Source: a virus. From it: a stretch of DNA of 25,422 bases. Positions 1,618 through 23,892 of the stretch are shown in pieces (position 1 is the first letter of the stretch; each line of letters starts with the position of its first letter). A program made the position numbers and the translations under genes. The stretch is from UHGV virus genome UHGV-0247665; one strand, 5' to 3'. The notes under the pieces are model-generated. The model did no database searches. It had not been told where the DNA came from and saw only the letters and a list, made by a program, of their open reading frames with translations.

Positions 1618-1638
1618 TTATTACATGGAGAAGATAAG

Positions 1639-3958: not shown

Positions 3959-3970
3959 GTGACATGTCAC
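3959..3970. repeat. 12-bp perfect palindrome GTGACATGTCAC (copy 1)
   Basis: Exact match; contains the TGA stop of the lipoprotein gene. Confidence 0.6.
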
Positions 3971-4347
3971 GCAACGCAATTATTACCGCGCCATGTAACA
4001 TTTTTAATAATCTTATCAGCACCAAACTCAACGTAAACAGAGCAACTGAAATGGAGTGTATAACCGCCATCAGTTGTTGCGTATGTGTTTGAATATATAG
4101 TATTACCAATTAGATTAGACGTAGTATTATACGTTGTGGTTTGTGGTACGTTATAACTACCAGAGCTTGAGTAAACATACACTCTGTTTCCATCTGGAGA
4201 TGTAAGCTCTCCCTGAGGATACCCCCACTGCTGAACCATTGCGTCTATACTCTGCCCGCGCCACGTAAGCATATTTCTTTCAAACTGTGCAGCTGACTGG
4301 CATCCAACGAGAAGCATAAATCCAAAAATCAAAAATACTTTTCTCAT
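3967..4347 (-). CDS. Outer-membrane lipoprotein (126 aa); candidate lysogenic-conversion or superinfection-exclusion protein
   Basis: In frame within ORF track 3967..4383. The ATG at 4347 is preceded by GGGGG with a 5-nt spacer. N-terminus MRKVFLIFGFMLLVGCQSA carries a lipobox (LLVGC). The mature part is Ser/Thr/Asn/Tyr-rich. The stop codon lies inside the GTGACATGTCAC palindrome. Confidence 0.75.
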   Translation of the reverse strand: MRKVFLIFGFMLLVGCQSAAQFERNMLTWRGQSIDAMVQQWGYPQGELTSPDGNRVYVYSSSGSYNVPQTTTYNTTSNLIGNTIYSNTYATTDGGYTLHFSCSVYVEFGADKIIKNVTWRGNNCVA

Positions 4348-4432
4348 AATTACCCCTATCATGGAAAAACAGCACCAATCCACAAATTAACTAGTTATTT
4401 TATTATTCTTCCGAACAATACAATTCCGAATA

Positions 4433-4555
4433 CTACAAAGCCGAACCATGCCGCTGCACGCAACAGAGATTCCAATTGAAACCCATTTTTATCAAAATGT
4501 ATGAATAGCATAAAAACGCTGCACATATTAGTACAATAAAAGTTATTTGAACCAT
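4433..4555 (-). CDS. Small hydrophobic membrane peptide (about 40 aa), not in the ORF track
   Basis: Tandem ATGs at 4558 and 4555 (minus) lie 2 and 5 nt after the SD AAAGGAG, which itself directly follows the TAA of the 824-aa gene. Reading frame MMVQITFIVLICAAFLCYSYILIKMGFNWNLCCVQRHGSAL*. It is in a different frame from ORF-track entry 4395..4583, which lacks an SD. Confidence 0.45.
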   Translation of the reverse strand: MVQITFIVLICAAFLCYSYILIKMGFNWNLCCVQRHGSAL

Positions 4556-4566
4556 CATATCTCCTT

Positions 4567-7041
4567 TTATTGCGGAGTGACATCCTGTGGTCGCCACCAG
4601 TATGTCTGGTTAAACTCTTTCTTCGAACGTTGCTCCATTTTACGCAAATAGCCTGGTGAAAAATACTCCTGCATCTGGTTAAAGATCATGTGATCGAGAG
4701 CCGCCTTCAAGTACCAGAGATTCGCACCAGGCATCAAACCTTTCCCCAGCTTCACCAGATCACCACCAGTCTGCTCACTCTTCCCTTCCACAGCATTTAA
4801 CGGTATGCCCTGAGCAATCTTCACTACGTCATCAACCAGACCAGCTACCGGGCCAAGCATCGACGCCAGCGCGCCGCTTCCGTACCTAGTGTGATCTGAC
4901 AATAAAAAGTCACCGTAAAGGCCAAGACCACCACCTTTCAGTAGAGCACCAAGCCAGAATTTTGCGGCATCTTCTCCTGTCATCTCTCGAGGATTACGAC
5001 CAGACGCAAGGTCGTTAAGTTGCTGCGACAAAGCGCCAAGAATGGTCGTACTGGCAATAAACGTCGCAATATATGCCGCACGCCCACCAGCAGACGGCAT
5101 ACCCATAGCGCGTGACCAGTGACGCATAACAACCGAGATAGGGAACGATTTAAACAGGAAAACACTTCTCGTTAATTCACCTTTCCATGTTCCACGCTGA
5201 ATACCAGAACCGGTTATCAGTTGCTCACGTGCTCCCGGTGTAATAACAGCCATATCAACTTCTTCAGTTACGGCACCGAGCAGTTTACGCATTGCCTCAA
5301 ATTTCACGCGTTCAGGCTCACCAAGATGTTTAACTGCTGAATCAGAGATACGCATAATGCTTTCCGGTGTCAGCATCGTATTATTACCGTTCCCCCAGTC
5401 CTCCTGTTTCGCCAGCTTCCATACGCTCCAGTCTGTGTCAGTAATCCCTTTGCTTTTCAGGATACGAAAATCAGAGTCATCGAGGCTACGAAGGTCTGGT
5501 GTCCGTGACACTACTTCTCCCAGGCTTCCCATCATGGTTACGCCATAGGCGCGCTTGTGCGCATCTGACCATGCTGTAAGCCCACTGGCACGCATTACCG
5601 CCGTTGCCGCCCAACGAGACACTGACGGCCCCATATTATCCATCGCCCAGCGGTTAACGCTGCCAAGTAGAGATTCCATCGCCAGACCAGCGCGGCGCGC
5701 CCGCGCAAGTTCTGTACGGTTCGTTGGGTCCATAGCTTCAAGCTGGTTGCGGAATAACTGGTTCATTGGAAGGTTGGTAACCTTCGCAGACAGATACATG
5801 GTTCCAAGATCAGAGAACGATGACAGCAACGCGGATCCGAGTCTGCTGGCAACCAGCCAGTTGCGGATATTGTCAGACCATCGCGCGATGTGCGGATTCG
5901 CTACAGGCTGTGTCTTTCCGGAAATAAAGTTGTACAGATTCTCTGTGTTGTTCGCCAGCCGCTCGACTTTACCGGTTTTACTCGGGTTAGCTGTTGCCGT
6001 TTCTGCCTTCACCTGATCAAGAAGAGAGCGGAAAACATGATCGGGGTTTGGGCCATATGTTTCCACCAGTGCAATATCTTTACTGATACCTTCCAGGTGA
6101 CCGACCATGATTTCCCATAGAGAGCGATCGCCATAAAGTTGCTGATATTGCAGATAGGAATCTGCATCTTTGAAATGTATCTGTCGTGATGCATTACCAC
6201 GGTTAGCACGTGCGCCGGAAATTCGCATTCCGGTATCAGTAAGCTTATTCAGCCCACCAGTAGCGATCGTGTTATAAGCCTCTCCAAGAAATGAAGACAA
6301 CTCGGCATCGTTCATCAGTTGTCCATCGGCTCGGATATAATATTTGCGATCCAGCTTACCTATAACATCGCTAACCCACTTATCCTTTGATACTGCCCCA
6401 ACCTTTTCCATAGAATGATGTTGAGGGATCCCCCAGTTTTCGAGATAGCCAATGTCCCCACCAGCATCATTAAACCGGCGGCGCAGCAGCTCTGTAACTT
6501 CTCTCCACGCCTTAGCACCGTTTCTTGCTTTAGCATTGCCAGTATTTTGCCCCCGCATTTCATATACCAGGTCACGTACGCCCGCTTCATCTTCAAACAG
6601 ACCAAAAAAGCGAGGATCAACTGCTTCGAATGCCTCCTGCAATTGACTCAATGCATAATCACGGGTGGCTTTTGTTCTGGATTCAACAGAGAGGAAATTA
6701 GATTTACCGTCTGCATTAAAAGCTATAGTACGGTTAAGAGCGCCAAGTTTCCCATCAGCCCCTTGATAGCTATTGATAAATTTATCCAATCTCTGACGCG
6801 CGGCTATAGTGAGAGCCACACGACGTTTCTTTAATGCCGCTTCTCGCTGTAATTCTTCAGATGCCAATTGTGCTGCTCGATATAGCCGCTCTGATTCGGA
6901 AAGTTGTCGCCACGACATAGGGTCATCACGAGCAATGGAGCGCATATTTCGATAAATGCGGTCTTCAATGTTCTGTATTTCTCGCGCCGTTAACATGCGC
7001 TGCGCCGCCTGCTGAACCGCTTGTATACATTCCTGTCTCAT
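4567..7041 (-). CDS. Internal virion / ejection protein (824 aa)
   Basis: ORF track. Last large gene of the minus-strand core-protein block, with a Gly-rich hydrophobic C-terminal region typical of membrane-inserting ejection proteins. Functional analogue of T7 gp14-16 by position and size only. Confidence 0.75.
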   Translation of the reverse strand: MRQECIQAVQQAAQRMLTAREIQNIEDRIYRNMRSIARDDPMSWRQLSESERLYRAAQLASEELQREAALKKRRVALTIAARQRLDKFINSYQGADGKLGALNRTIAFNADGKSNFLSVESRTKATRDYALSQLQEAFEAVDPRFFGLFEDEAGVRDLVYEMRGQNTGNAKARNGAKAWREVTELLRRRFNDAGGDIGYLENWGIPQHHSMEKVGAVSKDKWVSDVIGKLDRKYYIRADGQLMNDAELSSFLGEAYNTIATGGLNKLTDTGMRISGARANRGNASRQIHFKDADSYLQYQQLYGDRSLWEIMVGHLEGISKDIALVETYGPNPDHVFRSLLDQVKAETATANPSKTGKVERLANNTENLYNFISGKTQPVANPHIARWSDNIRNWLVASRLGSALLSSFSDLGTMYLSAKVTNLPMNQLFRNQLEAMDPTNRTELARARRAGLAMESLLGSVNRWAMDNMGPSVSRWAATAVMRASGLTAWSDAHKRAYGVTMMGSLGEVVSRTPDLRSLDDSDFRILKSKGITDTDWSVWKLAKQEDWGNGNNTMLTPESIMRISDSAVKHLGEPERVKFEAMRKLLGAVTEEVDMAVITPGAREQLITGSGIQRGTWKGELTRSVFLFKSFPISVVMRHWSRAMGMPSAGGRAAYIATFIASTTILGALSQQLNDLASGRNPREMTGEDAAKFWLGALLKGGGLGLYGDFLLSDHTRYGSGALASMLGPVAGLVDDVVKIAQGIPLNAVEGKSEQTGGDLVKLGKGLMPGANLWYLKAALDHMIFNQMQEYFSPGYLRKMEQRSKKEFNQTYWWRPQDVTPQ

Positions 7042-7046
7042 TTAAT

Positions 7047-8849
7047 TTAACCTCTCAAGAAACACGCCACAGCGACATCAAACAGGCTGGAATCCTGTAT
7101 TGCCTGCTCACTTTCCCTGTTCGCTTCATCCAGTGCTTCACGCGCACTGCGCGATTGTGGATTACCATCATCATCCAGCACGGTGATTATCATGTCAGGT
7201 GATTCAAGCAGCGAGTCTTCAGCTATGCGCAAATCAATATCTCCTGCCTGATCTGACATCATTTTTTGTTCTGCCTGTTGCAATATTTTATCAGGCTCAA
7301 AAGGAGCTACTTCGTCTGGCGTCCTGACCTCTGCTGTTTTATAGAATGAAACAGCCTGAGCATTAAGTTCACTTTCTGCCTGCTGTCTCCGAGCCAGTTC
7401 TGCTCGAGCTTCAAAAAACTGACCGCCAGGCTCATGCGGTGCCAACGCGTTACGAGAAAATTCCAGGCGTTCTTGTGCCTGCCGGATTCGTTGGTCAATA
7501 TCGCGAAGTCTGGCCTGTTTATCTGATCGAGCACGAGATAAAGCCTTACCGCTACCGGCTGGATCTTCTGCAAGAATTTGTGCGCGCTGTTCAGTGAGAT
7601 TTTCAATAATTCGTTGGCTATTAGCGATTTCAGACTGGTAAACCTGTCTATCGCCACGCGGCAAAAGCTGCGCGGCCTGTTCTTCAAGCAACCGATTTTC
7701 TATAGCGCGCGCCGTTACTCCATCATCTACAGATGACAGAGCCTCATTAACTGCCTGAGACAGCAGACTCTTGCGTCCAGGAATTTCACTGAAAGATGCA
7801 GACTCAACAATGCTGGCAACGTCTACAGGTCTCCCCTGGCTAACATCAGACATGGCTTTTCGCAGAGCCTGAATGTGCGAATTACGCGAAAGCACGTTGA
7901 TCGGCACGCCGGGAGCAATATCAATTTCAGCATGATGAGCGGCATTCGCCGCCAGTGCAGCATCGATATCAACTGGTGAAAAATTTGGTGCGCTTGTAGA
8001 CTCGCCGCGAGAGTTAATAAATCTGCCGACACCACCAAACGCCACCCCAAGAACAGCATCAATAGCAATTGCCTGTCGATCCAACACATCATACTGGTTA
8101 GCCATTTCGCTATAGCCACCATCACGAAGCGTTTTTGCAGTAAGCCCACGCTGTGCCATACCGAACGCAATATTTGTACCTGCGGCATAGGCAATATCTG
8201 GCGTTGCACGTACTGCTGTTGCTGCGGCGCGTCGCACTGAACTTTCACCCGTCCGCGCAAGCTGAGCCGCCACACCTTCCGCCAGCGCACCACCAGCACG
8301 TAACCCGAGGCTCATAGGGATCAGTGTTCCGGCACCAGCAGTAATACCCTGCACTAATCCCGCTTCCTGCGCCGTCCTGAAATCAACACCCTGTGCTGTA
8401 AGCCGTTCAAACTCAGAAAAACCCTGTAGAGAAGTTACCGCCGCAGCACCTCCGACCGGACCACCGAGCGTTGTACCGACAACAGCCTGCCCGCCCATAT
8501 CGAACAACCCATAAAGGACCTGCCCGGCGGTTCCGGTTGTCGCGGCATCAGGCGTCAGCCGCTTAACCTGCTGCTCTGCTAGTTTTCTCTGCTCAGCAAT
8601 GTATGAAACTGAAGTGTCATTGATCGAGGTGTTTTCGTTAACAAACTGAGCAATCGGGGATACGATTTTATCCATCCCTGCCCATAGCAACTGATCTGGC
8701 TTTGCCACCAGCCCGGAGTACAAACCAGACAATGCCGCTCCTACAGCATTGTCGAAAAAACCAACATCGCTGTTAAAACCAGCTGGATTTGATGCTGCTT
8801 CGTCAAGCTGCTGATTCTGGTTTACTGGATTAAGGCCAAAGTAACTCAT
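7047..8849 (-). CDS. Internal virion / ejection protein (600 aa), Gly/Ala-rich
   Basis: ORF track. Contiguous with its neighbours at 5-nt spacing or 4-nt overlap. Long Gly/Ala-rich hydrophobic stretch. Confidence 0.75.
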   Translation of the reverse strand: MSYFGLNPVNQNQQLDEAASNPAGFNSDVGFFDNAVGAALSGLYSGLVAKPDQLLWAGMDKIVSPIAQFVNENTSINDTSVSYIAEQRKLAEQQVKRLTPDAATTGTAGQVLYGLFDMGGQAVVGTTLGGPVGGAAAVTSLQGFSEFERLTAQGVDFRTAQEAGLVQGITAGAGTLIPMSLGLRAGGALAEGVAAQLARTGESSVRRAAATAVRATPDIAYAAGTNIAFGMAQRGLTAKTLRDGGYSEMANQYDVLDRQAIAIDAVLGVAFGGVGRFINSRGESTSAPNFSPVDIDAALAANAAHHAEIDIAPGVPINVLSRNSHIQALRKAMSDVSQGRPVDVASIVESASFSEIPGRKSLLSQAVNEALSSVDDGVTARAIENRLLEEQAAQLLPRGDRQVYQSEIANSQRIIENLTEQRAQILAEDPAGSGKALSRARSDKQARLRDIDQRIRQAQERLEFSRNALAPHEPGGQFFEARAELARRQQAESELNAQAVSFYKTAEVRTPDEVAPFEPDKILQQAEQKMMSDQAGDIDLRIAEDSLLESPDMIITVLDDDGNPQSRSAREALDEANRESEQAIQDSSLFDVAVACFLRG

Positions 8850-11359: not shown

Positions 11360-11371
11360 CTTATTATCCCC

Positions 11372-12375: not shown

Positions 12376-14846
12376 CAGAACCCACCAACAGTAAGGCGAG
12401 GAATAACGGCAAGAACAGACAGCGGCAACGGATCAAGCTGACGGATTTTTACACGTCCGTTTTTTCCCCAGTTACTGTCCAGTTTCACTTCTACTTTTCC
12501 GGTAGCATCATCAACAGGATCATCGTAGAACTCGAATTCACGCTGTGGATATTCGTACCATTTACCGCCGGGCGTAGTCGCCCAGATGCCGCGACTGGCA
12601 TTCACAACCAGAGTAACGGAGGGGATCACCTGTTTTTTGTCCAGCAGCGTTTCCTGTCCGTTAATGTTGATATCCAGTGTTTCGAATTCAGCAGTTATTG
12701 GCAGGCCGATGTGCACTACAGCCCCCGGAGATTCCAGCGTGACGGCACCTCCGGAAACCACTTTCTGTGGTTCCACGTTCGCATCAGAGAGAATGTTTAC
12801 GGTCTGGCCTTCAAGATGAGACAGGCCTCCAAATGTCCGGCGCGCCATCTGCCAGTTCGTGGTGGCCACATTCCTGAGGGATGGCGGGACGTTCCTGTTA
12901 GCACGAACCACTACAGCGGTATTGCTGGTTACAGAAATAATGTCGCAACGTAATTCTTTTGACACCTCATCGCCAGTATCAGGATCAGTTCCGGTATAAG
13001 GGAACTGTAGTTGCGCGCCGACATCACTACTGGTGAAGTACGCACCACCAGAAACACTGATTGTATATTCCGCGCGGTAATCCCATTCGCCAGAACCACC
13101 AGTGATGATCATCGTTCTGTCAGACGTATTTCTTCCATCATAGCTAAGGCCAGAATCAACAAAGAAAGCATCTTCATCGCTGGTAAATAAACGGCTGGAC
13201 AGTCGCTCGATGTATCTCACTGTTTGCCCGTTAACGGTTCGGTTAACGACGAAATACACCGCATCTTCATTGCCTTCGCTGATACTGCATGTGCTTTCAT
13301 ATTTTCCGGTACTGGATTGTGGTGCCCATGCAAAAACCTGCTGATCACGCAAATAGGTCATCACCAGTAATTTACCGTCATCACGGATGCAGAAGGCGCT
13401 GGAGTAAGGGACTATTGAGAAGCACCAGTCAACAATGCTGTGCTTCTGAAAAAGATGATTGGCAAGGATAGTAAGGTCGTTCCCCTGATAGCCGTCAACA
13501 TCGAATGAGTAGGCCAGATCACGGACAACACTGCCTTTCTCCTGGACGAACAGAGCAATATTCGCCACGGCAATTGGTGGGACATTGCTCGAGCCATTTG
13601 ATCCCTGAGAGCTGAATGCAAATGATGATGGGGTAAGCACTTTGTTCTGGTCGCCAGTGATGACGTACTCACCTCCGGAAGTCAGCGCCACCAGCGAACC
13701 AACATCAATCAGGTGACGGATCTCATTAACCTGACGCCCGGCATAGGTGTAGATAATTCTGTCGTCATCCTGCGTAGGATTGCTTTTGCCAAAATCCTTA
13801 TAATCCCCAGTACGGCTGGCCCAGATAGTCTGAGGGAACGCAGTCGATGCGGCGAAGTAAAGACGCTGTTGATAATAAACAACAGTGCCAGGATAACCAT
13901 TAACACTGTTCCAGGCATATTTAGCCCATTTATAGCTGGCATTATCCTCGCCAACGACCTGCGAAGGGATATAGGAAATCACCTCGGCAGTTGCAGTAGT
14001 GCCGTTTACAGCAGTGATACGGGTAATGCCAAAACCACTGTGCAGATACTCCCACTCAATGCCAGTATCATCATCACCGGATCCGCCCCAGCCATCCCAT
14101 GATGTGCCTTCTGTATGCGAAGGGCGCAAAGTACCTGTTTTGCCTGCTGTAACGGCGCGATAGTAGTTACTGTCTGCACGGCGAATATCGCCAATCGACG
14201 TACTCTTACTGGTTTCCCATACCGGCACAGAATCCACTGCAGGCTGTTCCAGATAGAACAATTTGCCTACCTGCTCCGCGCCAAAAATAGAGGCGCTTGC
14301 CGTTAACGTAATTGTCCCGGTGCTGGCGCTGGCATAAACCGTCACTGACTCGTCAATATTGATATCTTCAAATGGCCCGTTCTTCGTTACCACATCAACC
14401 AGTTGCCAGTTGTCATGCGCATAGCGGCGCAACTCTTTCGGCGGGTATGCCGGATGAACCAGCGTAAGCACGTCTGCGCTTTGCGTGAATTTAATTCGGA
14501 ACAGATCGGTTTCAGTATATGGCGTGGAAATTTCATAAATAACATTGCTGCTGTTCAGCACCAACGCACCATCTTTGATAACGCGCATATACTGGTGTCC
14601 GAACTCCAGAGCATAAGTCTGAACCGTCGAGAACTGGAACGGGATCAGGCGGCATTTCCGATTTGGGTATTTGGCGGCACCGACAAAACGCGTACCAGGT
14701 CGATTCTCAACTCCGCCATACTGCCGCACGATAAAGTTATCGCACTTGCGCAATGCCACCTGGTACTTCGCCATGTCGATACGACCGTACAACGACGGTC
14801 CAATCTCACCACCGGCAAAGCTGGGCTGGATCCAACTGATAGCCAT
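12375..14846 (-). CDS. Tail tubular protein B / nozzle (T7 gp12-like, 823 aa)
   Basis: ORF track. About 800 aa, immediately downstream of a gp11-like gene. Assigned by size, order and overall resemblance to T7 gp12; not verified by search. Confidence 0.65.
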   Translation of the reverse strand: MAISWIQPSFAGGEIGPSLYGRIDMAKYQVALRKCDNFIVRQYGGVENRPGTRFVGAAKYPNRKCRLIPFQFSTVQTYALEFGHQYMRVIKDGALVLNSSNVIYEISTPYTETDLFRIKFTQSADVLTLVHPAYPPKELRRYAHDNWQLVDVVTKNGPFEDINIDESVTVYASASTGTITLTASASIFGAEQVGKLFYLEQPAVDSVPVWETSKSTSIGDIRRADSNYYRAVTAGKTGTLRPSHTEGTSWDGWGGSGDDDTGIEWEYLHSGFGITRITAVNGTTATAEVISYIPSQVVGEDNASYKWAKYAWNSVNGYPGTVVYYQQRLYFAASTAFPQTIWASRTGDYKDFGKSNPTQDDDRIIYTYAGRQVNEIRHLIDVGSLVALTSGGEYVITGDQNKVLTPSSFAFSSQGSNGSSNVPPIAVANIALFVQEKGSVVRDLAYSFDVDGYQGNDLTILANHLFQKHSIVDWCFSIVPYSSAFCIRDDGKLLVMTYLRDQQVFAWAPQSSTGKYESTCSISEGNEDAVYFVVNRTVNGQTVRYIERLSSRLFTSDEDAFFVDSGLSYDGRNTSDRTMIITGGSGEWDYRAEYTISVSGGAYFTSSDVGAQLQFPYTGTDPDTGDEVSKELRCDIISVTSNTAVVVRANRNVPPSLRNVATTNWQMARRTFGGLSHLEGQTVNILSDANVEPQKVVSGGAVTLESPGAVVHIGLPITAEFETLDININGQETLLDKKQVIPSVTLVVNASRGIWATTPGGKWYEYPQREFEFYDDPVDDATGKVEVKLDSNWGKNGRVKIRQLDPLPLSVLAVIPRLTVGGF

Positions 14847-16160: not shown

Positions 16161-16170
16161 CGATATCACC

Positions 16171-16608
16171 TTAACCAGTTACTTTTGAGCGGATCGGATA
16201 CGGCGTATTGGCATCAACATCAAGACTGATACCAGCAGTGAATTCGCCAGCCGTTAGTGGGCCAGTTGCGACGGAGTAGTTAACACGCAGATATCGCTGA
16301 ACACCGGCAGGCACCTTTGCAGAAACAACTCGTTTACCTGCTGTCAGGGCGGTCTTTGCCAGTGCGCCACTATCATAAATAGTGGTCCATGAGCTGTTAT
16401 TTTCACTCGTCTGCAACTGGATGTTTACAGTTGCATCACCGCTTGCCGCGGCGGCTGTGTTAACCAGCGCCCAAAACTCAAGCTGGTAACCAACGCCGAT
16501 ATCACGACGTTTTCCGTCAATTGGACCGAGATCGATTACGTCAGTAGAAGCCGCGGTATCAGTTACCGCCTGTGCTTCGGAGAACATCAACAGTTTGTCG
16601 GTGATCAT
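16171..16608 (-). CDS. Putative capsid-associated (decoration-type) protein, 145 aa
   Basis: ORF track. First gene after the major capsid gene; SD GGAGA 6 nt before the ATG. Function inferred from position only. Confidence 0.5.
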   Translation of the reverse strand: MITDKLLMFSEAQAVTDTAASTDVIDLGPIDGKRRDIGVGYQLEFWALVNTAAAASGDATVNIQLQTSENNSSWTTIYDSGALAKTALTAGKRVVSAKVPAGVQRYLRVNYSVATGPLTAGEFTAGISLDVDANTPYPIRSKVTG

Positions 16609-16623
16609 CTTCTTTCTCCATTA

Positions 16624-16643
16624 GTGGGTCTGTTACGACCCAC
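16624..16643 (-). other. GC-rich 7-bp stem-loop directly after the major capsid gene stop
   Basis: GTGGGTC-tgttac-GACCCAC between the capsid stop (16660) and the next SD. No U-run follows. Confidence 0.4.
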
Positions 16644-16659
16644 AGGTTAATAACAGGCG

Positions 16660-17652: not shown

Positions 17653-17660
17653 TTCCTCTC

Positions 17661-18362
17661 TTATTTGCCATAGAGCACTTCGGCCGCACTACGCTGGCCT
17701 TCATTACCACCGGTGACCATGCCATCTTCAGACATCGCCTTTCCGATTTTCACGAACGTTTTGACCAGATCAGGGTGATTACCCAGCCCGGTGGTGTTCA
17801 GATATTCTTTGAGTTCAGGTGTCCCGAACTGGTCAAGCGCACGCTGTGCGGCGCTAAGGTTAGAAATCAACTTGTCGCCACCGATTTCTTTGTCGGCTTT
17901 TACATCCGCAGCCCACTGCTCGGTTGTTTTCTGCCAGGCTTCTGCCTGGCGCTGCTGAACACCTGCCAGAATCTTCGGATAAGCATCAACCAGCTTTTGC
18001 GCTTGCTCGTTGGTCAGGTTTAGTTCTCGCGCCACCGGCTCGAATTCCTTCAACGCTTCTGTATCCAGCTCTACGCCTTCGGCAGCCTGAAACTCGTACT
18101 TTTCAGGCGCACCCTCTGGTTTATCGCCGTCCTTTTTTTCATCCTGCTTATCGTTTTCAGGCTTTTTGTCATCAGCAGGTTTATCGCCATCAGCAACAGG
18201 TTGTGGCTTATCACCTTCCTGTTGTGATGGATCACCAACTGGAGCAGGGTTATCACCTGCAGGCGCTGACGGTTCTGACGCAGCCGGAGCTGCTCCACCA
18301 TCGACTGGTTGCTCATTGCAAAGACGGCGATACAGCAAACGCTCAAATAAATTCATGATCAC
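17661..18362 (-). CDS. Scaffolding protein (233 aa)
   Basis: ORF track. Highly acidic, Pro/Ala/Lys-rich low-complexity N-terminus with a helical C-terminal part; lies between portal and capsid genes. Confidence 0.65.
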   Translation of the reverse strand: MIMNLFERLLYRRLCNEQPVDGGAAPAASEPSAPAGDNPAPVGDPSQQEGDKPQPVADGDKPADDKKPENDKQDEKKDGDKPEGAPEKYEFQAAEGVELDTEALKEFEPVARELNLTNEQAQKLVDAYPKILAGVQQRQAEAWQKTTEQWAADVKADKEIGGDKLISNLSAAQRALDQFGTPELKEYLNTTGLGNHPDLVKTFVKIGKAMSEDGMVTGGNEGQRSAAEVLYGK

Positions 18363-18655
18363 TCCTGTTCACTGGCCTCTTTGGCCATCTTCAAATACTG
18401 TTCAGGGCAATGCGCCATAACGCGCTGAAACAGTTCCAGCGCCAGATTGCGTTGCCCCTCATTAAATGCCATTGCCATAGCATCCATCGGAGAGATAGCG
18501 GAAAACACCCGGCCTTTCTCCAGCACCGACCAGACAACGCGACGCCCCTGTTCACTGCTCATGACAAAGCAAATGTCATCAATTTCACGCTGTGCCATGT
18601 CACGTTGCTTACGGGCGTTTTCTTCTTTCAGTTGATCGTCTTCGTAATCTGTCAT
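18359..18655 (-). CDS. Hypothetical head-morphogenesis protein (98 aa)
   Basis: ORF track. 4-nt overlaps with both the portal stop and the scaffold start. Confidence 0.55.
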   Translation of the reverse strand: MTDYEDDQLKEENARKQRDMAQREIDDICFVMSSEQGRRVVWSVLEKGRVFSAISPMDAMAMAFNEGQRNLALELFQRVMAHCPEQYLKMAKEASEQE

Positions 18656-20331
18656 TGTGATTGCCCACCCTGACCACTAACTGCATTCGCCATAGCTGAC
18701 AAAACACTCGGATCCGAAGTTTTAGCTTCGCTTAGCGTCTTGGCACCCTGTGCCGCCGCCATCCCCATCGCCATCATTTGTTGCTGCTGTTGTTGCTGTG
18801 CCCGTTGCTGGCGAGCCTGCTCAACCTGTTCCTGCGGAACAATGACGGTTGGAGACACTCCGGACATATCAGCGAATGCATCGATCGCCTGATCAACGTT
18901 GAGTTTGTCGAGAGCTTCTGGTTTCGCTTGCGCAAGTTGACCAATGAAGTTGACCGTAGACGCCAGACTGGACAGGCCGATAGACTTCTGCGCCTGAGCC
19001 ATGACGGAAATGTATTCGACCTTCAGGGGCATACCTTCCATTGCGTCAGGCGGTGGCGGCAGCATGTTTTTACGCACCATCATCGAGAAAGCGCGGTCAA
19101 TGAGAGGATTAAGACATTCGTCGTTCAGACGCTCCAGAACCGGCCCCAACATCAGAAGTTTTTCTTCTTTCATTTCGATCACCGCTTCAACAGGCATCGA
19201 GCGGGTATTGATGTTCTGCAACATCATGAACAGATCGACAAAGTAGGCGCTGTTAATGATTTGACGGGTGTCCTGAATGTCTGCCACCAAATCTGCTGTA
19301 CTGGGGTTAACCAGATAAGCAGGCCTGAAGCCATCCTGACCAGTAATCTGATCGATATACGTGATGTCGCCAGGAAGAAGGGAGGCGCGCTGATTCTTGA
19401 GGGAAGTCGGAGCAACCATCGGCGGATTGGTGGCTTTATCAATCAACTGCGACTTGCGCTTCTGGAGAAGCTGCAATGCCTTAACAGGTCCAAGCGCCAG
19501 CATACCCGGGCATGATGATCCATAAACATCTTCGCCATTAACTTCCCAGCGCGGAGCCATAATTGGAAACTCATCAAATCCGGACTCACGCAACAACTTG
19601 TCGTTATCGCCACCAACCTCGTAATAAACCGATTTGAATGGCTTGTTCTTGCTATCCAGCTTCGATGTATCGCGGTCAATGTTCGGGTAAACCGAATGCA
19701 TCACGTCAATCCACTTCTCGTAGGTGCCGCTTTCCCACATGCTTTTTACGGATTCGCTGACGTTATTTAGCCCGAACTCCTGAACAAGCTGACGAACAGT
19801 CATAGAGAACTTGCGAAAACAGGTGTCCACACTGCCACGAGGTGAGTTAGCCAGGTAGTAACTGCCTATCGGGAATGGCATTGTGCGAATGATGTCCTCG
19901 TCATCCTCCAGCACCGCCATTGCACCAGTGCTGTATGTGCCGAGGCTTCCGTATAACTGCGGAAGAGACTGGTAGAGATTCGACTTATTGAACATATCGT
20001 TCATGCGGTTCTGCACCGCCTCGAGCCACAACTTAACAGGACCATAATCCATCATTTCAGGATCTGGCGTAGCCAGGCGAAACCACGGACGCGCAGGGCT
20101 TGTGATGCCTGACATCATGCCGCTGGCGAGAGTGCGCGCCGCCATAGTCCCGGTCGAATCAATAATGCGTGTATTGCGTCGATCGTTACGGTTGACCTCA
20201 GAAGTCAGAAAGCGGGAACCACGCGGGTTGATGTAATCACTCAACTCGCGCCAGTGCGGCTCGAACGACTGACGCTCGCTTTCAAGTTGTGCGAACTGTT
20301 TGTTCAATCGCTCTTTAGTTGTTTCCGCCAT
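18652..20331 (-). CDS. Portal (head-tail connector) protein, 559 aa
   Basis: ORF track. About 560 aa, downstream of terminase. Its C-terminal Gln/Ala/Met-rich tail (QQQQQQQMMAMGMAAAQGA) resembles the T7 gp8-type portal C-terminus. Confidence 0.85.
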   Translation of the reverse strand: MAETTKERLNKQFAQLESERQSFEPHWRELSDYINPRGSRFLTSEVNRNDRRNTRIIDSTGTMAARTLASGMMSGITSPARPWFRLATPDPEMMDYGPVKLWLEAVQNRMNDMFNKSNLYQSLPQLYGSLGTYSTGAMAVLEDDEDIIRTMPFPIGSYYLANSPRGSVDTCFRKFSMTVRQLVQEFGLNNVSESVKSMWESGTYEKWIDVMHSVYPNIDRDTSKLDSKNKPFKSVYYEVGGDNDKLLRESGFDEFPIMAPRWEVNGEDVYGSSCPGMLALGPVKALQLLQKRKSQLIDKATNPPMVAPTSLKNQRASLLPGDITYIDQITGQDGFRPAYLVNPSTADLVADIQDTRQIINSAYFVDLFMMLQNINTRSMPVEAVIEMKEEKLLMLGPVLERLNDECLNPLIDRAFSMMVRKNMLPPPPDAMEGMPLKVEYISVMAQAQKSIGLSSLASTVNFIGQLAQAKPEALDKLNVDQAIDAFADMSGVSPTVIVPQEQVEQARQQRAQQQQQQQMMAMGMAAAQGAKTLSEAKTSDPSVLSAMANAVSGQGGQSQ

Positions 20332-20345
20332 TTCAATGACTCCGG

Positions 20346-20552
20346 TTACTGACCAAGCAGCGTTTTACCGCTGGTATTAGCGGTTGATGTGTCGCCCTGA
20401 GAACCGGTAAGCAGCGTAGAACTACGACCAGCAGCAGCGCGACGGCGACGTGTTTCTTCGTCGCGGGCATCAACAACGGCGGCATCCTGCTCCTGTGGTG
20501 CTGCCTGAACTTCTGGTGTTGCAGGCACTGACGGTGAGCTACCCATGCACAT
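20346..20552 (-). CDS. Small hypothetical protein (68 aa), low complexity
   Basis: ORF track. Its start context CGGAGTCATTGAT-ATG is near-identical to the portal context CGGAGTCATTGAA-ATG. The overlapping 79-aa alternative frame is rejected. Confidence 0.5.
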   Translation of the reverse strand: MCMGSSPSVPATPEVQAAPQEQDAAVVDARDEETRRRRAAAGRSSTLLTGSQGDTSTANTSGKTLLGQ

Positions 20553-20642
20553 ATCAATGACTCCGTACGCAATTAAATTATCACCAATTTAACCACATAT
20601 GATTTATTTATCGTAGATAGTTGACATTTAACGCATGAATTA

Positions 20643-20657
20643 TTACCTTTCAGGTAA
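20643..20657. promoter_or_regulatory. TTACC-N5-GGTAA palindromic motif copy (ATTACC-tttca-GGTAAG)
   Basis: Intergenic, between the 68-aa/portal gene start and the tRNA; a TTGACA hexamer lies at 20621-20626. Confidence 0.5.
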
Positions 20658-20979
20658 GTAAAGTGTTCATTCCGGTTATTAACCTGACTGGCTTATCGTT
20701 AAATTGAACAGGTGGAGTGAGCTTTTATTTTGAGCAGTACGGCGTATGGCACATGCGCCGATAGCGGTCTGGATACGTTTAAGGGGCACCCTCCCTTGCT
20801 CGGGCAAACGAACCAGGTAGCCGGAATGTGCAAGTCGAGCGGTTTTATTCCGCGCACGGGGATTCACCATCCCGGCGATTCGGTGTGACGCCTCGGAAGA
20901 GACGAGGGTACAACGATGAGAGCATTTATGGAGCCGCGACAAAGTGTGGCGCCTTAACAGGCTAAGTGCTCTCAGCGTT

Positions 20980-21056
20980 GTGGCATTAGCTCAGTTGGAC
21001 AGAGCAACCGCCTTCTAAGCGGTTGGTCGCAGGTTCGAATCCTGCATGCCACGCCA
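20980..21056 (+). tRNA. tRNA-Arg (anticodon UCU), 77 nt with encoded CCA
   Basis: Folded by hand: 7-bp acceptor stem GTGGCAT/ATGCCAC, D-arm, anticodon stem ACCGC/GCGGT with loop CTTCTAA (U33, anticodon TCT, A37), T-arm GCAGG-TTCGAAT-CCTGC, discriminator G, CCA. Close to the E. coli argU-type tRNA. Confidence 0.92.
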
Positions 21057-21099
21057 GAATCACGCCTAAGGACCGTGATGCCAGAAGTTCCAGGTGCTT

Positions 21100-21141
21100 G
21101 GCGGTGATGGTTTCCCTTGAAGGACTATCACCGCCCTTTTT
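21100..21141 (+). terminator. Intrinsic terminator downstream of the tRNA (9-bp stem GGCGGTGAT/ATCACCGCC, 18-nt loop, CTTTTT)
   Basis: Inverted repeat at 21100-21108 and 21127-21135 followed by a T-run. Confidence 0.5.
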
Positions 21142-21219
21142 ACAGCAGGACGCCATTGCGATGACTTCATGCTGTAAACCCGTACAGCCACGGAAGGCAT
21201 AACTCATTGCTTCCAGTTC

Positions 21220-21243
21220 GCCCGGTTCGCCGGGCATTTTTTT
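21220..21243 (+). terminator. Terminator-like hairpin (GCCCGG-TTCG-CCGGGC then ATTTTTTT) immediately upstream of the 118-aa gene SD
   Basis: 6-bp GC stem with a UUCG tetraloop and a 7-T run; the downstream SD AAGGTGA begins at 21244. Confidence 0.45.
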
Positions 21244-21254
21244 AAGGTGAGATT

Positions 21255-21611
21255 ATGAACGACCAGCAAATCGAAAAAGAAATCGTTGAGAAAGGCAAAA
21301 CCGCTCCGCGAGTTACGCCTCAATATATCGAAAGCATCATTCTTGAAGAGCATTTCTTTACTGCTTATGACGGCATTCGTGCTGCCAATATGGGCGTTGG
21401 CGATACGTGGACAGCGCATAAATCTACAGACCTCCTTACTTTCTGCGTACTGGTGCTGAAGAATGGCTTCACCGTCACCGGAGAGAGTGCCTGTGCAAGC
21501 CCGGAAAACTTTGATGCAGAAATTGGTCGGAAAATTGCCCGGCAGAATGCTGTAAACAAAATCTGGATGCTTGAAGGTTACTTGCTGAAGCAGAAGTTAA
21601 GCGAGCAATAA
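21255..21611 (+). CDS. Small conserved phage protein (118 aa); tentatively N4 gp49 / Sf6 gp66-like family
   Basis: ORF track; SD AAGGTGA. The family assignment is recalled from the motif FCVLVLKNGFTVTGESACASPENFDAEIGRKIA and is unverified. Confidence 0.65.
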   Translation: MNDQQIEKEIVEKGKTAPRVTPQYIESIILEEHFFTAYDGIRAANMGVGDTWTAHKSTDLLTFCVLVLKNGFTVTGESACASPENFDAEIGRKIARQNAVNKIWMLEGYLLKQKLSEQ

Positions 21612-21615
21612 CACC

Positions 21616-21627
21616 GTGACATGTCAC
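21616..21627. repeat. 12-bp perfect palindrome GTGACATGTCAC (copy 2)
   Basis: Exact match; 5 nt after the stop of the 118-aa gene and adjacent to the terminator hairpin. Confidence 0.6.
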
Positions 21628-21631
21628 AAAC

Positions 21632-21659
21632 AGCCAGCTCATAGGCTGGCTTTGTTTTA
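21632..21659 (+). terminator. Intrinsic terminator (AGCCAGC-tcatag-GCTGGCT then TTGTTTTA) between convergent genes
   Basis: 7-bp stem with a T-rich tail on the plus strand; lies between the 118-aa gene stop and the large terminase stop. Confidence 0.55.
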
Positions 21660-21701
21660 TCCTCATCAGAGGATATCAACGACATTATCCCCACCAGCGG
21701 A

Positions 21702-23177
21702 TTAAGCATACGGGTCATAATCTGTGATGGCCTTGCCTTGCTGGTTCTGCTGCCCAGGAATTCGCAGACGCTTCGACACAGGGAAAGCAAACGTCAGCAA
21801 TAGCGCATCGCCTTTACCAGGAGAACGCCCAAGCCGCTCCTTGATATCTTCCTTCGGTTCGATAACGATTTTACCGTCCACGCGAACTTTGTACTCTGCC
21901 GCCGACAGGTCGTCCGCTGTTTCCTGGTCATCCAGCATGCCGCCCAGCCTCAGCCATGTCTTGCATGAGTTGAACATCTCCCCACGCTTGTTAAGCATCT
22001 GCGGGTCAGTAGACGCGCCACCGAACGGAACAAGTTGCCATGTACGCCCCCAACCATCACCGATTGACTTCAAACCGGTTCCGTAACCGAAGTCGATGAA
22101 CACCGCGTCAGCCTGGTACTGGTCTTCAAAGTCAGCGATACGCTTCGCCATAATCAGATCGTCAGTGGTCTTGTTGCCGGTCCACAGCACCTTACTGTGC
22201 AGCCCCTGCCGCAGATATATCACCGCGTCATCAACACCGGAGTATGCCGGGTCAACGCCGATTATCACCGGAGCATGTGCAACCTGCGCAGCGGTGACCA
22301 CCCGTTTCATTGCCTCGTCAGTAAGTCCGGTAGGGATAAACTGCAATTCAGATGCATCCGGGAATATGCCGCGCACACGGATTTTAACGAAGTCGCTATC
22401 TTCCCCGTAGTCATCAACCCATTTCTGCAACTGCTGTTTGTTAGTGCCTTCCACCGTCCGGCTGTCAATCTGCGCAGTTTTCCAGCGGTGTTTGTATTTG
22501 CGGAAACATTCGCGAAAACGCCCGGTATTACGTGTAGGGTTTCCGAACGCCACCCAGATAATCTCAGTGTCTTCGTCCGTAAGCGCACCCTCAGCAACTT
22601 CCCACACCAGATCCGCAATGTTCGACGCTTCATCGAATACCACGATGATGCGTTTGCGCTCGTTGTGTAGTCCGGCGAATGCCTCAGTGTTGTGCTCAGA
22701 CCAGGGGATTGCGTCAGCTCGCCACCGCTTGTCGTGCCCAGGATCATTGCTGTACATCGCAGTAGCGGTACAGGTAAACCAGTCTTTCGTGATAGCAAGG
22801 TTCGACCACTTGATAATTTCCGGCCAGGTCTTCGTTCGTAGCTGGTTGTCGGTGTTGGCGGTCACCACGACCTTACAATCCTCGCAAGTGGACATGCCCC
22901 AGTTGATCAGCATTGAGATGAATGCGGATTTACCAATACCGTGACCCGAAGCACGTGCCAGCATAAGCGGCTGATAGCGCGTCTCTGGATTCTGCAGGTG
23001 ATCACGTATCTCTCGGAACGCATCAGCCTGCCACTGACGTGGGCCGGTAGCATGTGCCAGTTCAGTCCCCTCTTCCCCCCACGGGAACGCATAGAGGGCA
23101 TAGCCAAGCGGATCGTGAGTGAACCCTGCAATATCCTCGATCAACTGCTCTTCAGGAGATAACGCTGTATCTGTCAC
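21702..23177 (-). CDS. Terminase large subunit (491 aa)
   Basis: ORF track. Walker A-like GHGIGKSAF, Walker B-like IIVVFDEAS, and C-terminal nuclease-type motifs (GVDPAYSG, FIDFGYG). 4-nt overlap with the small-subunit gene. Confidence 0.9.
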   Translation of the reverse strand: MTDTALSPEEQLIEDIAGFTHDPLGYALYAFPWGEEGTELAHATGPRQWQADAFREIRDHLQNPETRYQPLMLARASGHGIGKSAFISMLINWGMSTCEDCKVVVTANTDNQLRTKTWPEIIKWSNLAITKDWFTCTATAMYSNDPGHDKRWRADAIPWSEHNTEAFAGLHNERKRIIVVFDEASNIADLVWEVAEGALTDEDTEIIWVAFGNPTRNTGRFRECFRKYKHRWKTAQIDSRTVEGTNKQQLQKWVDDYGEDSDFVKIRVRGIFPDASELQFIPTGLTDEAMKRVVTAAQVAHAPVIIGVDPAYSGVDDAVIYLRQGLHSKVLWTGNKTTDDLIMAKRIADFEDQYQADAVFIDFGYGTGLKSIGDGWGRTWQLVPFGGASTDPQMLNKRGEMFNSCKTWLRLGGMLDDQETADDLSAAEYKVRVDGKIVIEPKEDIKERLGRSPGKGDALLLTFAFPVSKRLRIPGQQNQQGKAITDYDPYA

Positions 23178-23770
23178 TGATTACCATCCTGACGTTCTTT
23201 GAGTCGCTTCCTGGCTGCTGCTATGCGATCAGCAATTGTCACATTCACATTAACATCCAGACGTTCTTTGAACGCGTTGACATCAACATGCTTACCAATC
23301 AGCTCAAGGTTCTTCACCTTGTCAGGCCATTTAATTTTTTTGAGGATTGTCTCTATCGAATCCTCGTTCATGTTCATGATGGTCGATGACAGATCAAAGC
23401 CACTAAGCGTAGTGCGCCAGATTTTCGGCCACTCACGGATTGGTTTAAGGCTCCCATCGTCGTTGAGGATGTCGATCACGTCCATCTGGTCGATCTGCAC
23501 CAGGCGCATGAGAACGTAATCAGCACTGACGCGCATTCGTTTGTTGCGCTCCTCCATCAACTCGGCAATCCGTTTTTGAATGCGTTCATCGCGCATCATG
23601 ACACTGGCTTTAACTGCCGCTGTATTTGGGGAGAATCCTGCGTTAATCGCTGCCTGAGTCTGGTTTTCAGGCGTTTTGATGTATGACTGGCAATAAGCCT
23701 CCTGCATTGCTGTTAGTGGCTTAAATTGCGTTGATTTGCGTTTATAGGTTTTAGGTTCAGCAGGCATCAT
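23174..23770 (-). CDS. Terminase small subunit (about 199 aa from ATG 23770)
   Basis: ORF track 23174..23848 uses a TTG start. I prefer the tandem ATGs at 23770 and 23767, preceded by GGTGG, because a terminator hairpin and motif cluster occupy 23771-23848. The LTAMQEAYCQSYIKTPENQTQAAINAGFSPNTAAVKA region resembles small-terminase (Terminase_2-type) N-terminal domains. Confidence 0.75.
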   Translation of the reverse strand: MMPAEPKTYKRKSTQFKPLTAMQEAYCQSYIKTPENQTQAAINAGFSPNTAAVKASVMMRDERIQKRIAELMEERNKRMRVSADYVLMRLVQIDQMDVIDILNDDGSLKPIREWPKIWRTTLSGFDLSSTIMNMNEDSIETILKKIKWPDKVKNLELIGKHVDVNAFKERLDVNVNVTIADRIAAARKRLKERQDGNQ

Positions 23771-23787
23771 AACCACCGTGGTAATAG

Positions 23788-23802
23788 TTACCGTTTTGGT
23801 AA
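23788..23802. promoter_or_regulatory. TTACC-N5-GGTAA palindromic motif copy within a cluster of GGTAATAGT repeats
   Basis: GGTAATAGTTACC-gtttt-GGTAATAGTACC lies 20-40 nt upstream of the small terminase ATG. Confidence 0.5.
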
Positions 23803-23813
23803 TAGTACCATGC

Positions 23814-23839
23814 AAAATAAAGCCGCCATAGTTGGCGGC
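23814..23839 (-). terminator. Intrinsic terminator on the minus strand between the 115-aa gene and the terminase operon (GCCGCCA-n4-TGGCGGC then UUUAUUUU)
   Basis: 7-bp GC stem at 23822-23839; the minus-strand U-run corresponds to plus-strand A-run 23814-23821. Confidence 0.5.
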
Positions 23840-23880
23840 AGTATTCAAAACCCATCAAATTCATCATGCATAATCTACTC

Positions 23881-23892
23881 GTGACATGTCAC
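23881..23892. repeat. 12-bp perfect palindrome GTGACATGTCAC (copy 3)
   Basis: Exact match; contains the TGA stop of the 115-aa gene, upstream of the terminase operon. Confidence 0.6.

What the first reader, a model, noticed from the sequence alone, without database searches (positions are those of the whole stretch)
3959..23892. Three exact copies of the 12-bp palindrome GTGACATGTCAC at module boundaries, two of them supplying gene stop codons
A specific 12-mer is expected far less than once in 25 kb, yet three copies occur at 3959, 21616 and 23881. Each lies at the 3' end of a gene where transcription units converge or where the accessory and structural modules meet, and all share the same flanking C and A. 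In two cases the TGA stop is the TGA inside the palindrome. This could be a protein-binding site, a recombination or mosaic-junction marker, or a processing signal.
Basis: seen in the sequence. Interest (0 to 1): 0.7.

Follow-up and report, generated by a model that had tools for sequence, protein, structure and literature searches.

The report
Conserved phage regulator binding-site palindrome
The three identical 12-base palindromes are real, and they look like the DNA docking sites of a small uncharacterised phage regulator whose gene ends inside one copy; they sit at the ends of transcription units, usually beside terminators, in many unrelated phages.

Summary
GTGACATGTCAC occurs exactly three times (3959, 21616, 23881) against 0.01 expected. 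The window is an epsilon15/phiV10-like (Uetakevirus) prophage of E. coli.

The 12-mer is invariant at the same three junctions in phages only 76-81% identical, while the flanks diverge. Site a overlaps the TGA stop of a 112-aa gene (23889..24227, minus strand; phrog_536, no Pfam family). Its AlphaFold model resembles ribbon-helix-helix (RHH) DNA-binding proteins, followed by a Cys-rich tail.

Homologues of this gene at 30-45% identity occur in N15-like, P2-like, Vibrio and other phages. Each carries GTGAC-NN-GTCAC, with a lineage-specific centre, in or just after its own stop codon, and a few more copies elsewhere in the genome. I counted 53 sites in 585 kb against about 2 expected. BcepC6B, the one relative checked that lacks the gene, has no site.

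Half of all sites lie within 45 nt of an intrinsic terminator, against 5% of random positions.

Best reading: these are operators of this RHH regulator. They probably control read-through at unit-end terminators, a Q-like timing role; this mechanism is inferred, not shown. The sites also coincide with mosaic joints. They are not matS (13 bp), a pac/cos site, a host repeat or a stable RNA hairpin. I found no literature on the motif.

The parts
23881..23892 (.). Palindrome copy a. It overlaps the TGA stop of the regulator gene and lies 41 nt upstream of the leader terminator that precedes terS.
   Evidence: The same arrangement is seen in 78 of 80 related IMG/VR loci and in epsilon15, SPN1S, Tyrion, 65FD and BUCT711.
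21616..21627 (.). Palindrome copy b. It lies between the TAA of a reverse-oriented moron gene and its terminator, at the 3' end of terL. This copy is facultative in the genus.
   Evidence: It is present in about 55 of 80 loci. The gene on the moron side varies in at least 6 ways. In 65FD the centre is CT.
3959..3970 (.). Palindrome copy c. It supplies the TGA of the last late-operon gene and is immediately followed, on the minus strand, by the operon's terminator.
   Evidence: At least 120 IMG/VR contigs carry this palindrome-plus-hairpin island, with at least 31 upstream and at least 29 downstream flank types.
23889..24227 (-). Gene for the presumed binding protein. It encodes 112 aa: a basic N-terminal helix, a ribbon-helix-helix core and a Cys-rich C-terminal tail. 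It is the homologue of epsilon15 gp49, phiV10 gp55 and N15 gp46.
23813..23839 (-). Intrinsic terminator (GCCGCCAACTATGGCGGC plus a T tract) in the leader between site a and terS.
   Evidence: It is conserved in epsilon15, where it is annotated as a stem_loop terminator, and in SPN1S, Tyrion and 65FD.
21632..21660 (+). Intrinsic terminator 4 nt after site b. It terminates the moron gene and overlaps the region just past terL.
3931..3958 (-). Intrinsic terminator (AGGCCGCTTTCGCGGCCT plus TGTTTTT) directly abutting site c. It ends the late structural operon.
   Evidence: The stem is conserved and the loop is variable in relatives.
3967..4383 (-). Last gene of the late operon in this phage (phrog_3716). 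It is variable between relatives, and its stop codon lies in palindrome c.
21255..21611 (+). Reverse-oriented moron gene of the N4 Gp49 / Sf6 gp66 family, PF13876. It ends 4 nt before site b.
23174..23767 (-). Small terminase gene, the first late gene downstream of site a. The likely true start is MMPAEPK at about 23767, not the TTG at 23848.

Best explanation
GTGAC-AT-GTCAC is the double-stranded DNA operator of the phage's own small ribbon-helix-helix / Cys-rich regulator (window 23889..24227, minus strand). A dimer would bind with one subunit per GTGAC arm.

The gene is the last one of the early-right operon and ends inside one operator. The other operators sit between a stop codon and an intrinsic terminator at the ends of transcription units.

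My best guess at the mechanism is conditional punctuation. Without the protein (in the lysogen, or early after induction) the terminators insulate the late genes and the morons from one another. Once the protein has accumulated, it binds next to the terminators and changes what RNA polymerase does there. Most likely it lets polymerase read through into the next lytic genes on the same strand: terS after site a, and the tail fibre and lysis genes after site c. That would be a Q-like timing device.

Shown here: the motif, its conservation, its linkage to the gene, and its proximity to terminators.

Inferred: that this protein binds the motif, that the target is DNA rather than RNA, and the sign and mechanism of the effect on termination.

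I put about 0.75 on 'operator of this regulator' and about 0.35-0.4 on the read-through mechanism.
For: (1) Enrichment: 3 copies against 0.01 expected.

(2) Purifying selection. In six genomes 76-98% identical, the core is invariant in 12/12, 11/12 and 12/12 columns at sites a, b and c. The flanks are invariant in only 24/72, 11/72 and 1/72 columns.

(3) Gene-site linkage in independent lineages. The stop codon lies inside the motif in each of these:
- Uetakevirus, centre AT (78 of 80 loci)
- N15 and two N15-like elements, centre TG
- a Yersinia P2-like phage, centre GC
- Vibrio phages, centre AG
- a GC-rich P2-like clade, centre CG
In many other loci the motif lies within 1-100 nt after the stop.

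(4) I counted 53 sites of GTG[AT]CNNG[AT]CAC in 585 kb around distant homologues, against about 2 expected. Nearly all lie downstream of the gene. BcepC6B lacks both the gene and the motif.

(5) The arms are constant and the centre varies: AT, CT, TG, CA, CC, GC, AG, GG, CG, AC. This is what a dimer reading two half-sites predicts.

(7) 107 of 201 sites have a terminator-like hairpin within 45 nt, against 5.3% of random positions. The recurrent order is stop codon, site, then hairpin after 0-11 nt.

(8) Essential same-strand genes follow the site-plus-terminator with no sigma-70-like promoter in between. This holds for terS in the window and for the major capsid gene in L072.

(9) The asymmetric variant GTGTCCGGTCAC is conserved and cannot form a hairpin. 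The 12-mer RNA hairpin is worth only -1.2 kcal/mol. Both favour DNA over RNA as the target.
Against: No binding data exist, and no paper in the library mentions the motif.

Site b is missing in about a quarter of close relatives, so it is dispensable.

N15 has its own Q and P2-like phages their own Ogr-type activator. The protein therefore cannot be the general late switch.

Some sites are intragenic: N15 repA, BUCT711 virion genes, a P2-like terminase gene. That fits a roadblock repressor better than an antiterminator.

At site b the palindrome follows the hairpin in the late direction.

The late units also carry ATTACC-N5-GGTAAT sites, which may mark separate promoters. If so, read-through would not be needed.

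Terminator proximity could simply reflect placement in compact 3' intergenic gaps.

The counts in (3), (4) and (7) include many related loci and are not independent events.
Confidence: 0.45

Rival explanations
1. Same protein and same DNA site, but the bound dimer acts as a classical RHH repressor or roadblock (an insulator). It would stop polymerases at unit boundaries and inside some genes, and would autoregulate by stalling polymerase at the end of its own gene.
For: RHH proteins are typically repressors (established knowledge of the Arc/MetJ/CopG superfamily). Intragenic sites occur in N15 repA, BUCT711 and a P2-like terminase gene. The sites mark the 3' ends of three successive units, while ATTACC..GGTAAT sites mark their starts. 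The half-site GTGACA resembles a -35 box, and GTGACA-17/18-(TAAATT/CATGAT) is present at site a in two sequence types.
Against: At sites a and c, in L072 and in the P2-like clade, the site lies upstream of a good terminator in the direction of the terminated transcript. A roadblock there would be redundant. The -10-like element is missing in two other site-a variants and at sites b and c. Blocking entry into terS or the capsid gene would be harmful in lytic growth unless other promoters exist.
Confidence: 0.25
2. The palindrome is primarily a recombination site or hotspot at which morons and modules are exchanged. The regulator linkage would be secondary.
For: Unrelated genes abut the palindrome. 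At least 6 different reverse genes end TAA-CRCC next to site b, there are 3 types of right flank at site a, and at least 31 and 29 flank types surround the site-c island. In L072 two copies bracket a single inserted ORF. In L081 the palindrome is truncated exactly at its centre. These phages encode RecET-type recombinases.
Against: No site-specific recombinase is linked to the motif. The motif is conserved in or beside the stop of one particular gene in phages with entirely different neighbours. N15-like elements keep three sites in conserved, non-mosaic places, including inside repA. Any conserved island inside variable DNA will look like a junction.
Confidence: 0.1
3. The sites are matS-like targets of the host protein MatP, or of another host factor.
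Against: The spacer is 2 bp in every lineage, not 3. The lineage-specific centres track the phage gene. Prophages avoid matS (PMC3603311). Profile comparison of the family with MatP is not significant (probability 0.2%).
Confidence: 0.05
4. The element acts in RNA, as a small hairpin next to the terminator that serves as a processing, stability or protein-binding signal (nut- or RAT-like).
For: The sites are transcribed and abut terminator hairpins. The regulator has an arginine-rich N-terminal helix.
Against: The hairpin is worth -1.2 kcal/mol, no better than shuffled sequence. The conserved variant GTGTCCGGTCAC has a mismatch in the stem (-0.5 kcal/mol). No compensatory changes are seen, and the element does not compete with the terminator fold. 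There is no Rfam family at the sites. The partner has an RHH fold.
Confidence: 0.04
5. The palindrome is a packaging (pac/cos) recognition or cleavage site.
For: Site a lies about 110 nt upstream of terS. The phiV10 and Tyrion GenBank records are opened inside the palindrome. In Vibrio phage K303 a copy lies between an HNH gene and terS.
Against: There are three copies per genome. Tyrion is circularly permuted with terminal redundancy, so the record start is arbitrary (PMC5754475). N15 has lambda-type cos ends far from its three sites. The motif follows the regulator gene, not the terminase type.
Confidence: 0.03

Closest known systems
Ribbon-helix-helix regulators and their operators (P22 Arc and Mnt, CopG, antitoxins such as MazE, ParD and TacA)
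   Same: A small dimeric protein whose model matches the RHH fold. A short two-fold-symmetric DNA target. Phage-encoded, with a handful of sites per genome.
   Different: The operators are not at the regulator's own promoter. They lie in or beside its stop codon and at the 3' ends of other units next to terminators. There is an extra Cys-rich C-terminal module. The half-site centres are 7 bp apart on a single 12-bp site, rather than tandem or 10-11-bp-spaced boxes. No Pfam family covers the protein.
MatP-matS of E. coli
   Different: matS is 13 bp with an RNY centre; this site is 12 bp. MatP has a four-helix bundle and a coiled coil, and no detectable sequence relation to this family. matS is confined to the host Ter region and is avoided by prophages.
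Lambda Q with its binding element and the promoter-proximal terminator tR' (comparison from my own knowledge)
   Same: The regulator gene is the last gene of the early-right operon, directly upstream of the late genes. A DNA site is followed shortly by a strong terminator that must be passed to express terS.
   Different: No homology to any Q family in Pfam. The sites are not embedded in a conserved promoter. Copies lie next to several terminators rather than at a single loading site. N15 carries a bona fide Q in addition.
TraR/DksA C4 zinc-finger RNA-polymerase-binding proteins
   Same: The C-terminal 60 residues align with F-plasmid TraR, including CxxCGxxIP (hmmsearch E 0.08; hhalign probability 41%, E 2.8e-4).
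Conserved boundary or linker sequences at mosaic joints of lambdoid phages (from my own knowledge of the modular theory of phage evolution)
   Same: A short conserved sequence flanked by interchangeable genes.
   Different: Here the conserved sequence is tied to one DNA-binding protein gene across unrelated phage types. That argues its conservation is functional rather than a recombination scar.

Membership tests
RHH regulator / operator pair | The partner protein has the ribbon-helix-helix fold. | tested here: met
RHH regulator / operator pair | The target is a short DNA repeat with two-fold symmetry. | tested here: met
   It is a perfect 12-bp palindrome. The arms are invariant and the centre is variable across lineages.
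RHH regulator / operator pair | The protein physically binds the site. | not testable with these tools
   Only co-occurrence and co-variation are available: 53 sites against about 2 expected near homologues, and a stop codon inside the site in at least 5 lineages.
RHH regulator / operator pair | The operator overlaps the regulated promoter, usually at -35. | tested here: inconclusive
   GTGACA-18-CATGAT (window) and GTGACA-17-TAAATT (epsilon15 type) occur at site a. The element is absent in two other site-a variants and at sites b and c.
matS / MatP | A 13-bp site, GTGAC[AG]N[TC]GTCAC. | tested here: not met
   All three copies, and the sites of every lineage examined, have a 2-bp centre. The window has no GTGAC-N3-GTCAC, since the relaxed scan with 1-4-nt centres finds only the three 12-mers. 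The matS consensus is taken from PMC3603311.
matS / MatP | The binding protein is MatP or a homologue. | tested here: not met
   hhalign of the family profile against E. coli MatP gives probability 0.2%. My recalled MatP sequence matched PDB 4d8j over its full length at E 8e-96.
Q-type antitermination module | The protein belongs to a known Q family. | tested here: not met
   No Pfam or NCBIfam hit. No hit to solved structures by sequence.
Q-type antitermination module | The regulator gene lies directly upstream of the late operon, with a terminator just downstream of the DNA site. | tested here: met
   The order is regulator stop / site a, 41 nt, terminator 23822-23839, then terS. This is conserved in the genus. 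It is not the arrangement in N15 or in P2-like phages.
Q-type antitermination module | The site lies within a constitutive late promoter that has a promoter-proximal pause. | tested here: inconclusive
   A weak promoter-like match is present in only some variants. Pausing cannot be tested here.
pac / cos packaging site | Virion DNA ends, or the first cut, map to the site, and the site is single per genome. | tested here: not met
   There are three copies per genome. Tyrion is circularly permuted (PMC5754475). The N15 cos site is elsewhere.
Host repetitive palindromes (REP-like) | Frequent throughout the host chromosome. | tested here: not met
   No copies in 50 kb plus 9.6 kb of E. coli chromosome. 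This is only a small sample of the genome.
N15 SopB centromere repeats | The sequence GTGCGACC-NN-GGTCGCAC. | tested here: not met
   The N15 IR1-4 sequences in PMC7205306 differ from GTGAC-NN-GTCAC.
Intrinsic terminator / structured RNA element | A stable RNA hairpin, with a U tract or covariation. | tested here: not met
   The hairpin is worth -1.2 kcal/mol with z about 0. The asymmetric variant is worth -0.5 kcal/mol. There is no Rfam hit at the sites.

The most novel reading that the evidence does not exclude
A previously undescribed class of phage transcription 'punctuation'. A family of RHH / zinc-ribbon proteins, found in podo-, sipho- and myovirus-type temperate phages of Enterobacterales, Vibrio and Aeromonas, has its gene terminating inside its own 12-bp operator GTGAC-N2-GTCAC. 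From sites placed immediately upstream of intrinsic terminators, the protein would switch those terminators off during lytic growth, possibly through a TraR-like polymerase-binding tail. That would make it a DNA-loaded antiterminator unrelated to Q.
Probability: 0.2. Interest if true: 0.8.

Novelty: new variant of a known kind. Interest (0 to 1): 0.55.

Why it matters
This analysis pairs an orphan 'transcriptional regulator' family (phrog_536; epsilon15 gp49, phiV10 gp55, N15 gp46) with a precise DNA target. It also gives a testable regulon of three sites in a well-studied phage genus, which includes the structural model epsilon15 and the reporter phage phiV10. How late genes are switched on in these phages is, as far as I could find, not described.

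If the read-through model holds, this would be a new way of making terminators conditional. It would also explain how reverse-oriented or terminator-bearing morons can sit inside late operons without breaking them.

The motif is also a practical marker for module boundaries when annotating or engineering these prophages.

Tried and rejected
- MatP homology: hhalign was not significant.
- N15 SopB centromere identity: the sequences differ.
- pac/cos end: Tyrion is circularly permuted, so a record start inside the palindrome is arbitrary.
- RNA hairpin or anti-terminator pairing: the fold is marginal and independent of the terminator.
- Palindrome as a general -35 box: the -10 element is not conserved across site-a variants.
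- TraR-like fold of the C-terminus: this rests on weak sequence signals only, with no structural hit.
- The first AlphaFold run, on a shallow alignment, gave pLDDT 68 and meaningless Foldseek hits.
- Sequence search of PDB with the single protein found nothing.
- The search for related loci with the divergent alignment A3 failed for lack of conserved stretches. I used single distant proteins instead.
- Literature searches for the 12-mer and six variants found nothing relevant; the few hits were unrelated eukaryotic and mycobacterial papers.
- The vB_EcoP_ZX5 paper's title, abstract and section list do not mention this gene.
- A plasmid search found mostly phage-sized, non-mobilizable Klebsiella and E. 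coli plasmids, which I take to be N15-like phage-plasmids (one was fetched and confirmed); a few were larger plasmids or a 41-kb epsilon15-type element.
- I did not run a whole-collection scan for the bare 12-mer. About 35,000 chance matches are expected in 596 Gb, so the result would be uninformative.

Full report
**Observation.** GTGACATGTCAC occurs exactly at 3959, 21616 and 23881. Shuffled sequence gives 0.01 copies, and none of 100 shuffles reached three. One 1-mismatch copy at 18592 lies in a coding region. Two minus-strand ORFs end with the TGA inside the palindrome: 3967..4383 and 23889..24236. The plus-strand gene 21255..21611 ends 4 nt before the middle copy. The shared C...A flank holds only if site 1 is read on the other strand.

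**Context.** The window is an epsilon15/phiV10-like (Uetakevirus) prophage of E. coli, inserted next to guaA in a near-identical genome.

- The late genes are on the minus strand: terS, terL, a block of reverse-oriented morons with a tRNA-Arg, then the portal gene through to the last virion gene.
- These converge with a plus-strand accessory block that includes a BRO/Ant gene.
- Site a is the early/late boundary. Site b is the terL/moron junction. Site c is the end of the late structural operon.
- The true terS start is about 23767. An intrinsic terminator (23822-23839) and two ATTACC..GGTAAT repeats therefore lie in the leader between site a and terS.

**Conservation.** phiV10, Tyrion, SPN1S, epsilon15, 65FD and BUCT711 are 76-98% identical to the window. 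Each carries the motif at the homologous places.

- Anchored comparison shows 12/12, 11/12 and 12/12 invariant core columns, against 24/72, 11/72 and 1/72 in the flanks.
- 78 of 80 related IMG/VR loci have a copy at the regulator stop. Only one locus, L072, has a copy in the early DNA held upstream of the gene (up to 10 kb), and L072 carries a different structural module.
- Site b is absent in roughly a quarter of the loci.
- At least 120 viral contigs carry the site-c island (palindrome plus GGCCGC hairpin), with at least 31 upstream and at least 29 downstream flank types.
- No copy was found in about 60 kb of host chromosome.

**The partner gene.** Site a overlaps the stop of a 112-aa protein (phrog_536, 'transcriptional regulator') with no Pfam or NCBIfam family. 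The family is small: 151 representatives at the 50% identity level.

Distant homologues show the same arrangement, with different centres:

| Lineage | Motif | Position relative to the gene's stop |
|---|---|---|
| N15 gp46 | GTGACTGGTCAC | stop inside motif; two more copies upstream of the ant operon and inside repA |
| Enterobacter N15-like phage-plasmid | same, one centre changed | all three positions conserved |
| Klebsiella Kpn74 | GTGACTGGTCAC | stop inside motif |
| Yersinia P2-like phage | GTGACGCGTCAC | stop inside motif |
| Vibrio phages | GTGACAGGTCAC | stop inside motif, or 1-5 nt after it |
| GC-rich P2-like clade | GTGACCGGTCAC or GTGTCCGGTCAC | stop inside motif, or 22-78 nt after it |

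- Around these distant homologues the pattern GTG[AT]CNNG[AT]CAC occurs 53 times in 585 kb, against about 2 expected. Almost all copies lie downstream of the gene.
- BcepC6B, a structural relative, has neither the gene nor the motif.
- L072 has a different structural module but the same regulator, and carries three exact copies. Two of them bracket an inserted ORF just upstream of the capsid gene.

**The protein.** With a diverse alignment, AlphaFold gives pLDDT 87. The model has a basic N-terminal helix, an extended segment, two helices and a Cys-rich tail.

- Foldseek gives the same kind of hit, without significance.
- The tail aligns weakly with TraR, with no structural support.
- There is no detectable relation to MatP by profile comparison.

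**DNA or RNA.** The RNA hairpin is marginal (-1.2 kcal/mol) and does not compete with the terminators. The conserved asymmetric variant cannot pair. Constant arms with a variable centre fit a dimer bound to duplex DNA.

**Terminators.** 107 of 201 sites have a terminator-like hairpin within 45 nt, against 5.3% of random positions. Many of these sites are homologous, so the count is not independent.

- The recurring order is stop codon, site, then hairpin 0-11 nt later. This is seen at site c, at site b in the moron's direction, in L072, in 65FD, in BUCT711 and in the P2-like clade. At site a the gap is 22-41 nt.
- Same-strand lytic genes follow, with no sigma-70-like promoter detected in between: terS in the window and the capsid gene in L072.
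- This pattern is why I favour regulator-dependent read-through. The protein is made last in the early-right operon, which mirrors the logic of Q.

Several observations count against that model. Some sites are intragenic. Site b is dispensable. N15 has its own Q and the P2-like phage has an Ogr-type activator. The ATTACC..GGTAAT sites may mark separate late promoters. A roadblock or insulator role is therefore the main rival.

**Mosaicism.** Variable genes start within a few bases of the palindrome at all three sites. One locus has the palindrome cut at its centre. I read this as a conserved functional island that also offers microhomology for exchange, not as a dedicated recombination site.

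**Comparison with known systems.**

- matS shares the arms but is 13 bp (PMC3603311).
- The N15 SopB repeats have a different sequence (PMC7205306).
- Tyrion DNA is circularly permuted, so the site is not a genome end (PMC5754475).
- No paper in the library contains the motif or its variants. The epsilon15 GenBank record annotates terminators, IHF sites and 'repressor' sites, but not this element.

**Verdict.** The feature is real and strongly conserved. It is most likely the operator of an uncharacterised RHH regulator and works at transcription-unit boundaries. The binding partner is well supported by comparison. The mechanism remains inferred.

Noticed in passing
window 1547-1563, 1927-1943, 2961-2977, 20642-20658, 23769-23785, 23787-23803: A second repeated inverted repeat, ATTACC-N5-GGTAAT, has 6 copies with at most 2 mismatches against 0.76 expected. 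Four of the copies (1547, 20642, 23769 and 23787) sit just upstream of the three late units: tail fibre, portal unit and terS. The epsilon15 record annotates equivalent sites as 'repressor' sites. At two units a conserved CATATGTGGTT box follows about 40 nt downstream.
   Followed up: partly
window 1979-2160 (+): Rfam hits to the isrK Hfq-binding RNA (1979-2055) and the C4 antisense RNA (2074-2160). They lie immediately upstream of, and overlap the start of, the BRO-N/Ant antirepressor gene 2056..2895. This looks like a P1-type immI-like control region.
   Followed up: no
window 1600-1619: A perfect LexA-box-like palindrome, TACTGTATAAATATACAGTT, lies between the tail-fibre upstream region and the plus-strand accessory genes. 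Similar SOS boxes follow site a in some related phages (L065, L070, L081, L084, BUCT711).
   Followed up: partly
window 23767-23848 (-): The longest-ORF start of terS (TTG at 23848, as annotated in phiV10) would place an intrinsic terminator and two operator-like repeats inside the coding sequence. The epsilon15-like start MMPAEPK at about 23767 is more plausible.
   Followed up: yes
window 20980-21056 (+): A tRNA-Arg (anticodon tct) lies in the reverse-oriented moron block between terL and the portal unit.
   Followed up: no
window 18592-18603: A 1-mismatch copy, GTGCCATGTCAC, lies inside ORF 18359..18655 (minus strand). phiV10 has the corresponding 1-mismatch copy in the same gene. This is probably a coding coincidence.
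   Followed up: partly
L081 about 12,890-12,900 (after terL): Site b is truncated exactly at the palindrome centre (GTGACAT|TTAAAAAA...), as if a rearrangement had broken there.
   Followed up: no
L072 15507-16160: In a phage with a different structural module, two palindrome copies bracket a 190-aa ORF inserted between a protease-like gene and the major capsid gene. The second copy is 4 nt from a strong terminator, and no promoter-like site precedes the capsid gene.
   Followed up: partly
L119 (Vibrio phage K303) 19491-19503: A 13-bp GTGACACCGTCAC that fits the matS consensus occurs in a phage that also carries three 12-bp sites and a regulator homologue.
   Followed up: no
L086 (N15) 33237 and L128 22750: A GTGACTGGTCAC copy lies inside the repA replication gene and is conserved between N15 and an Enterobacter N15-like phage-plasmid.
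   Followed up: partly
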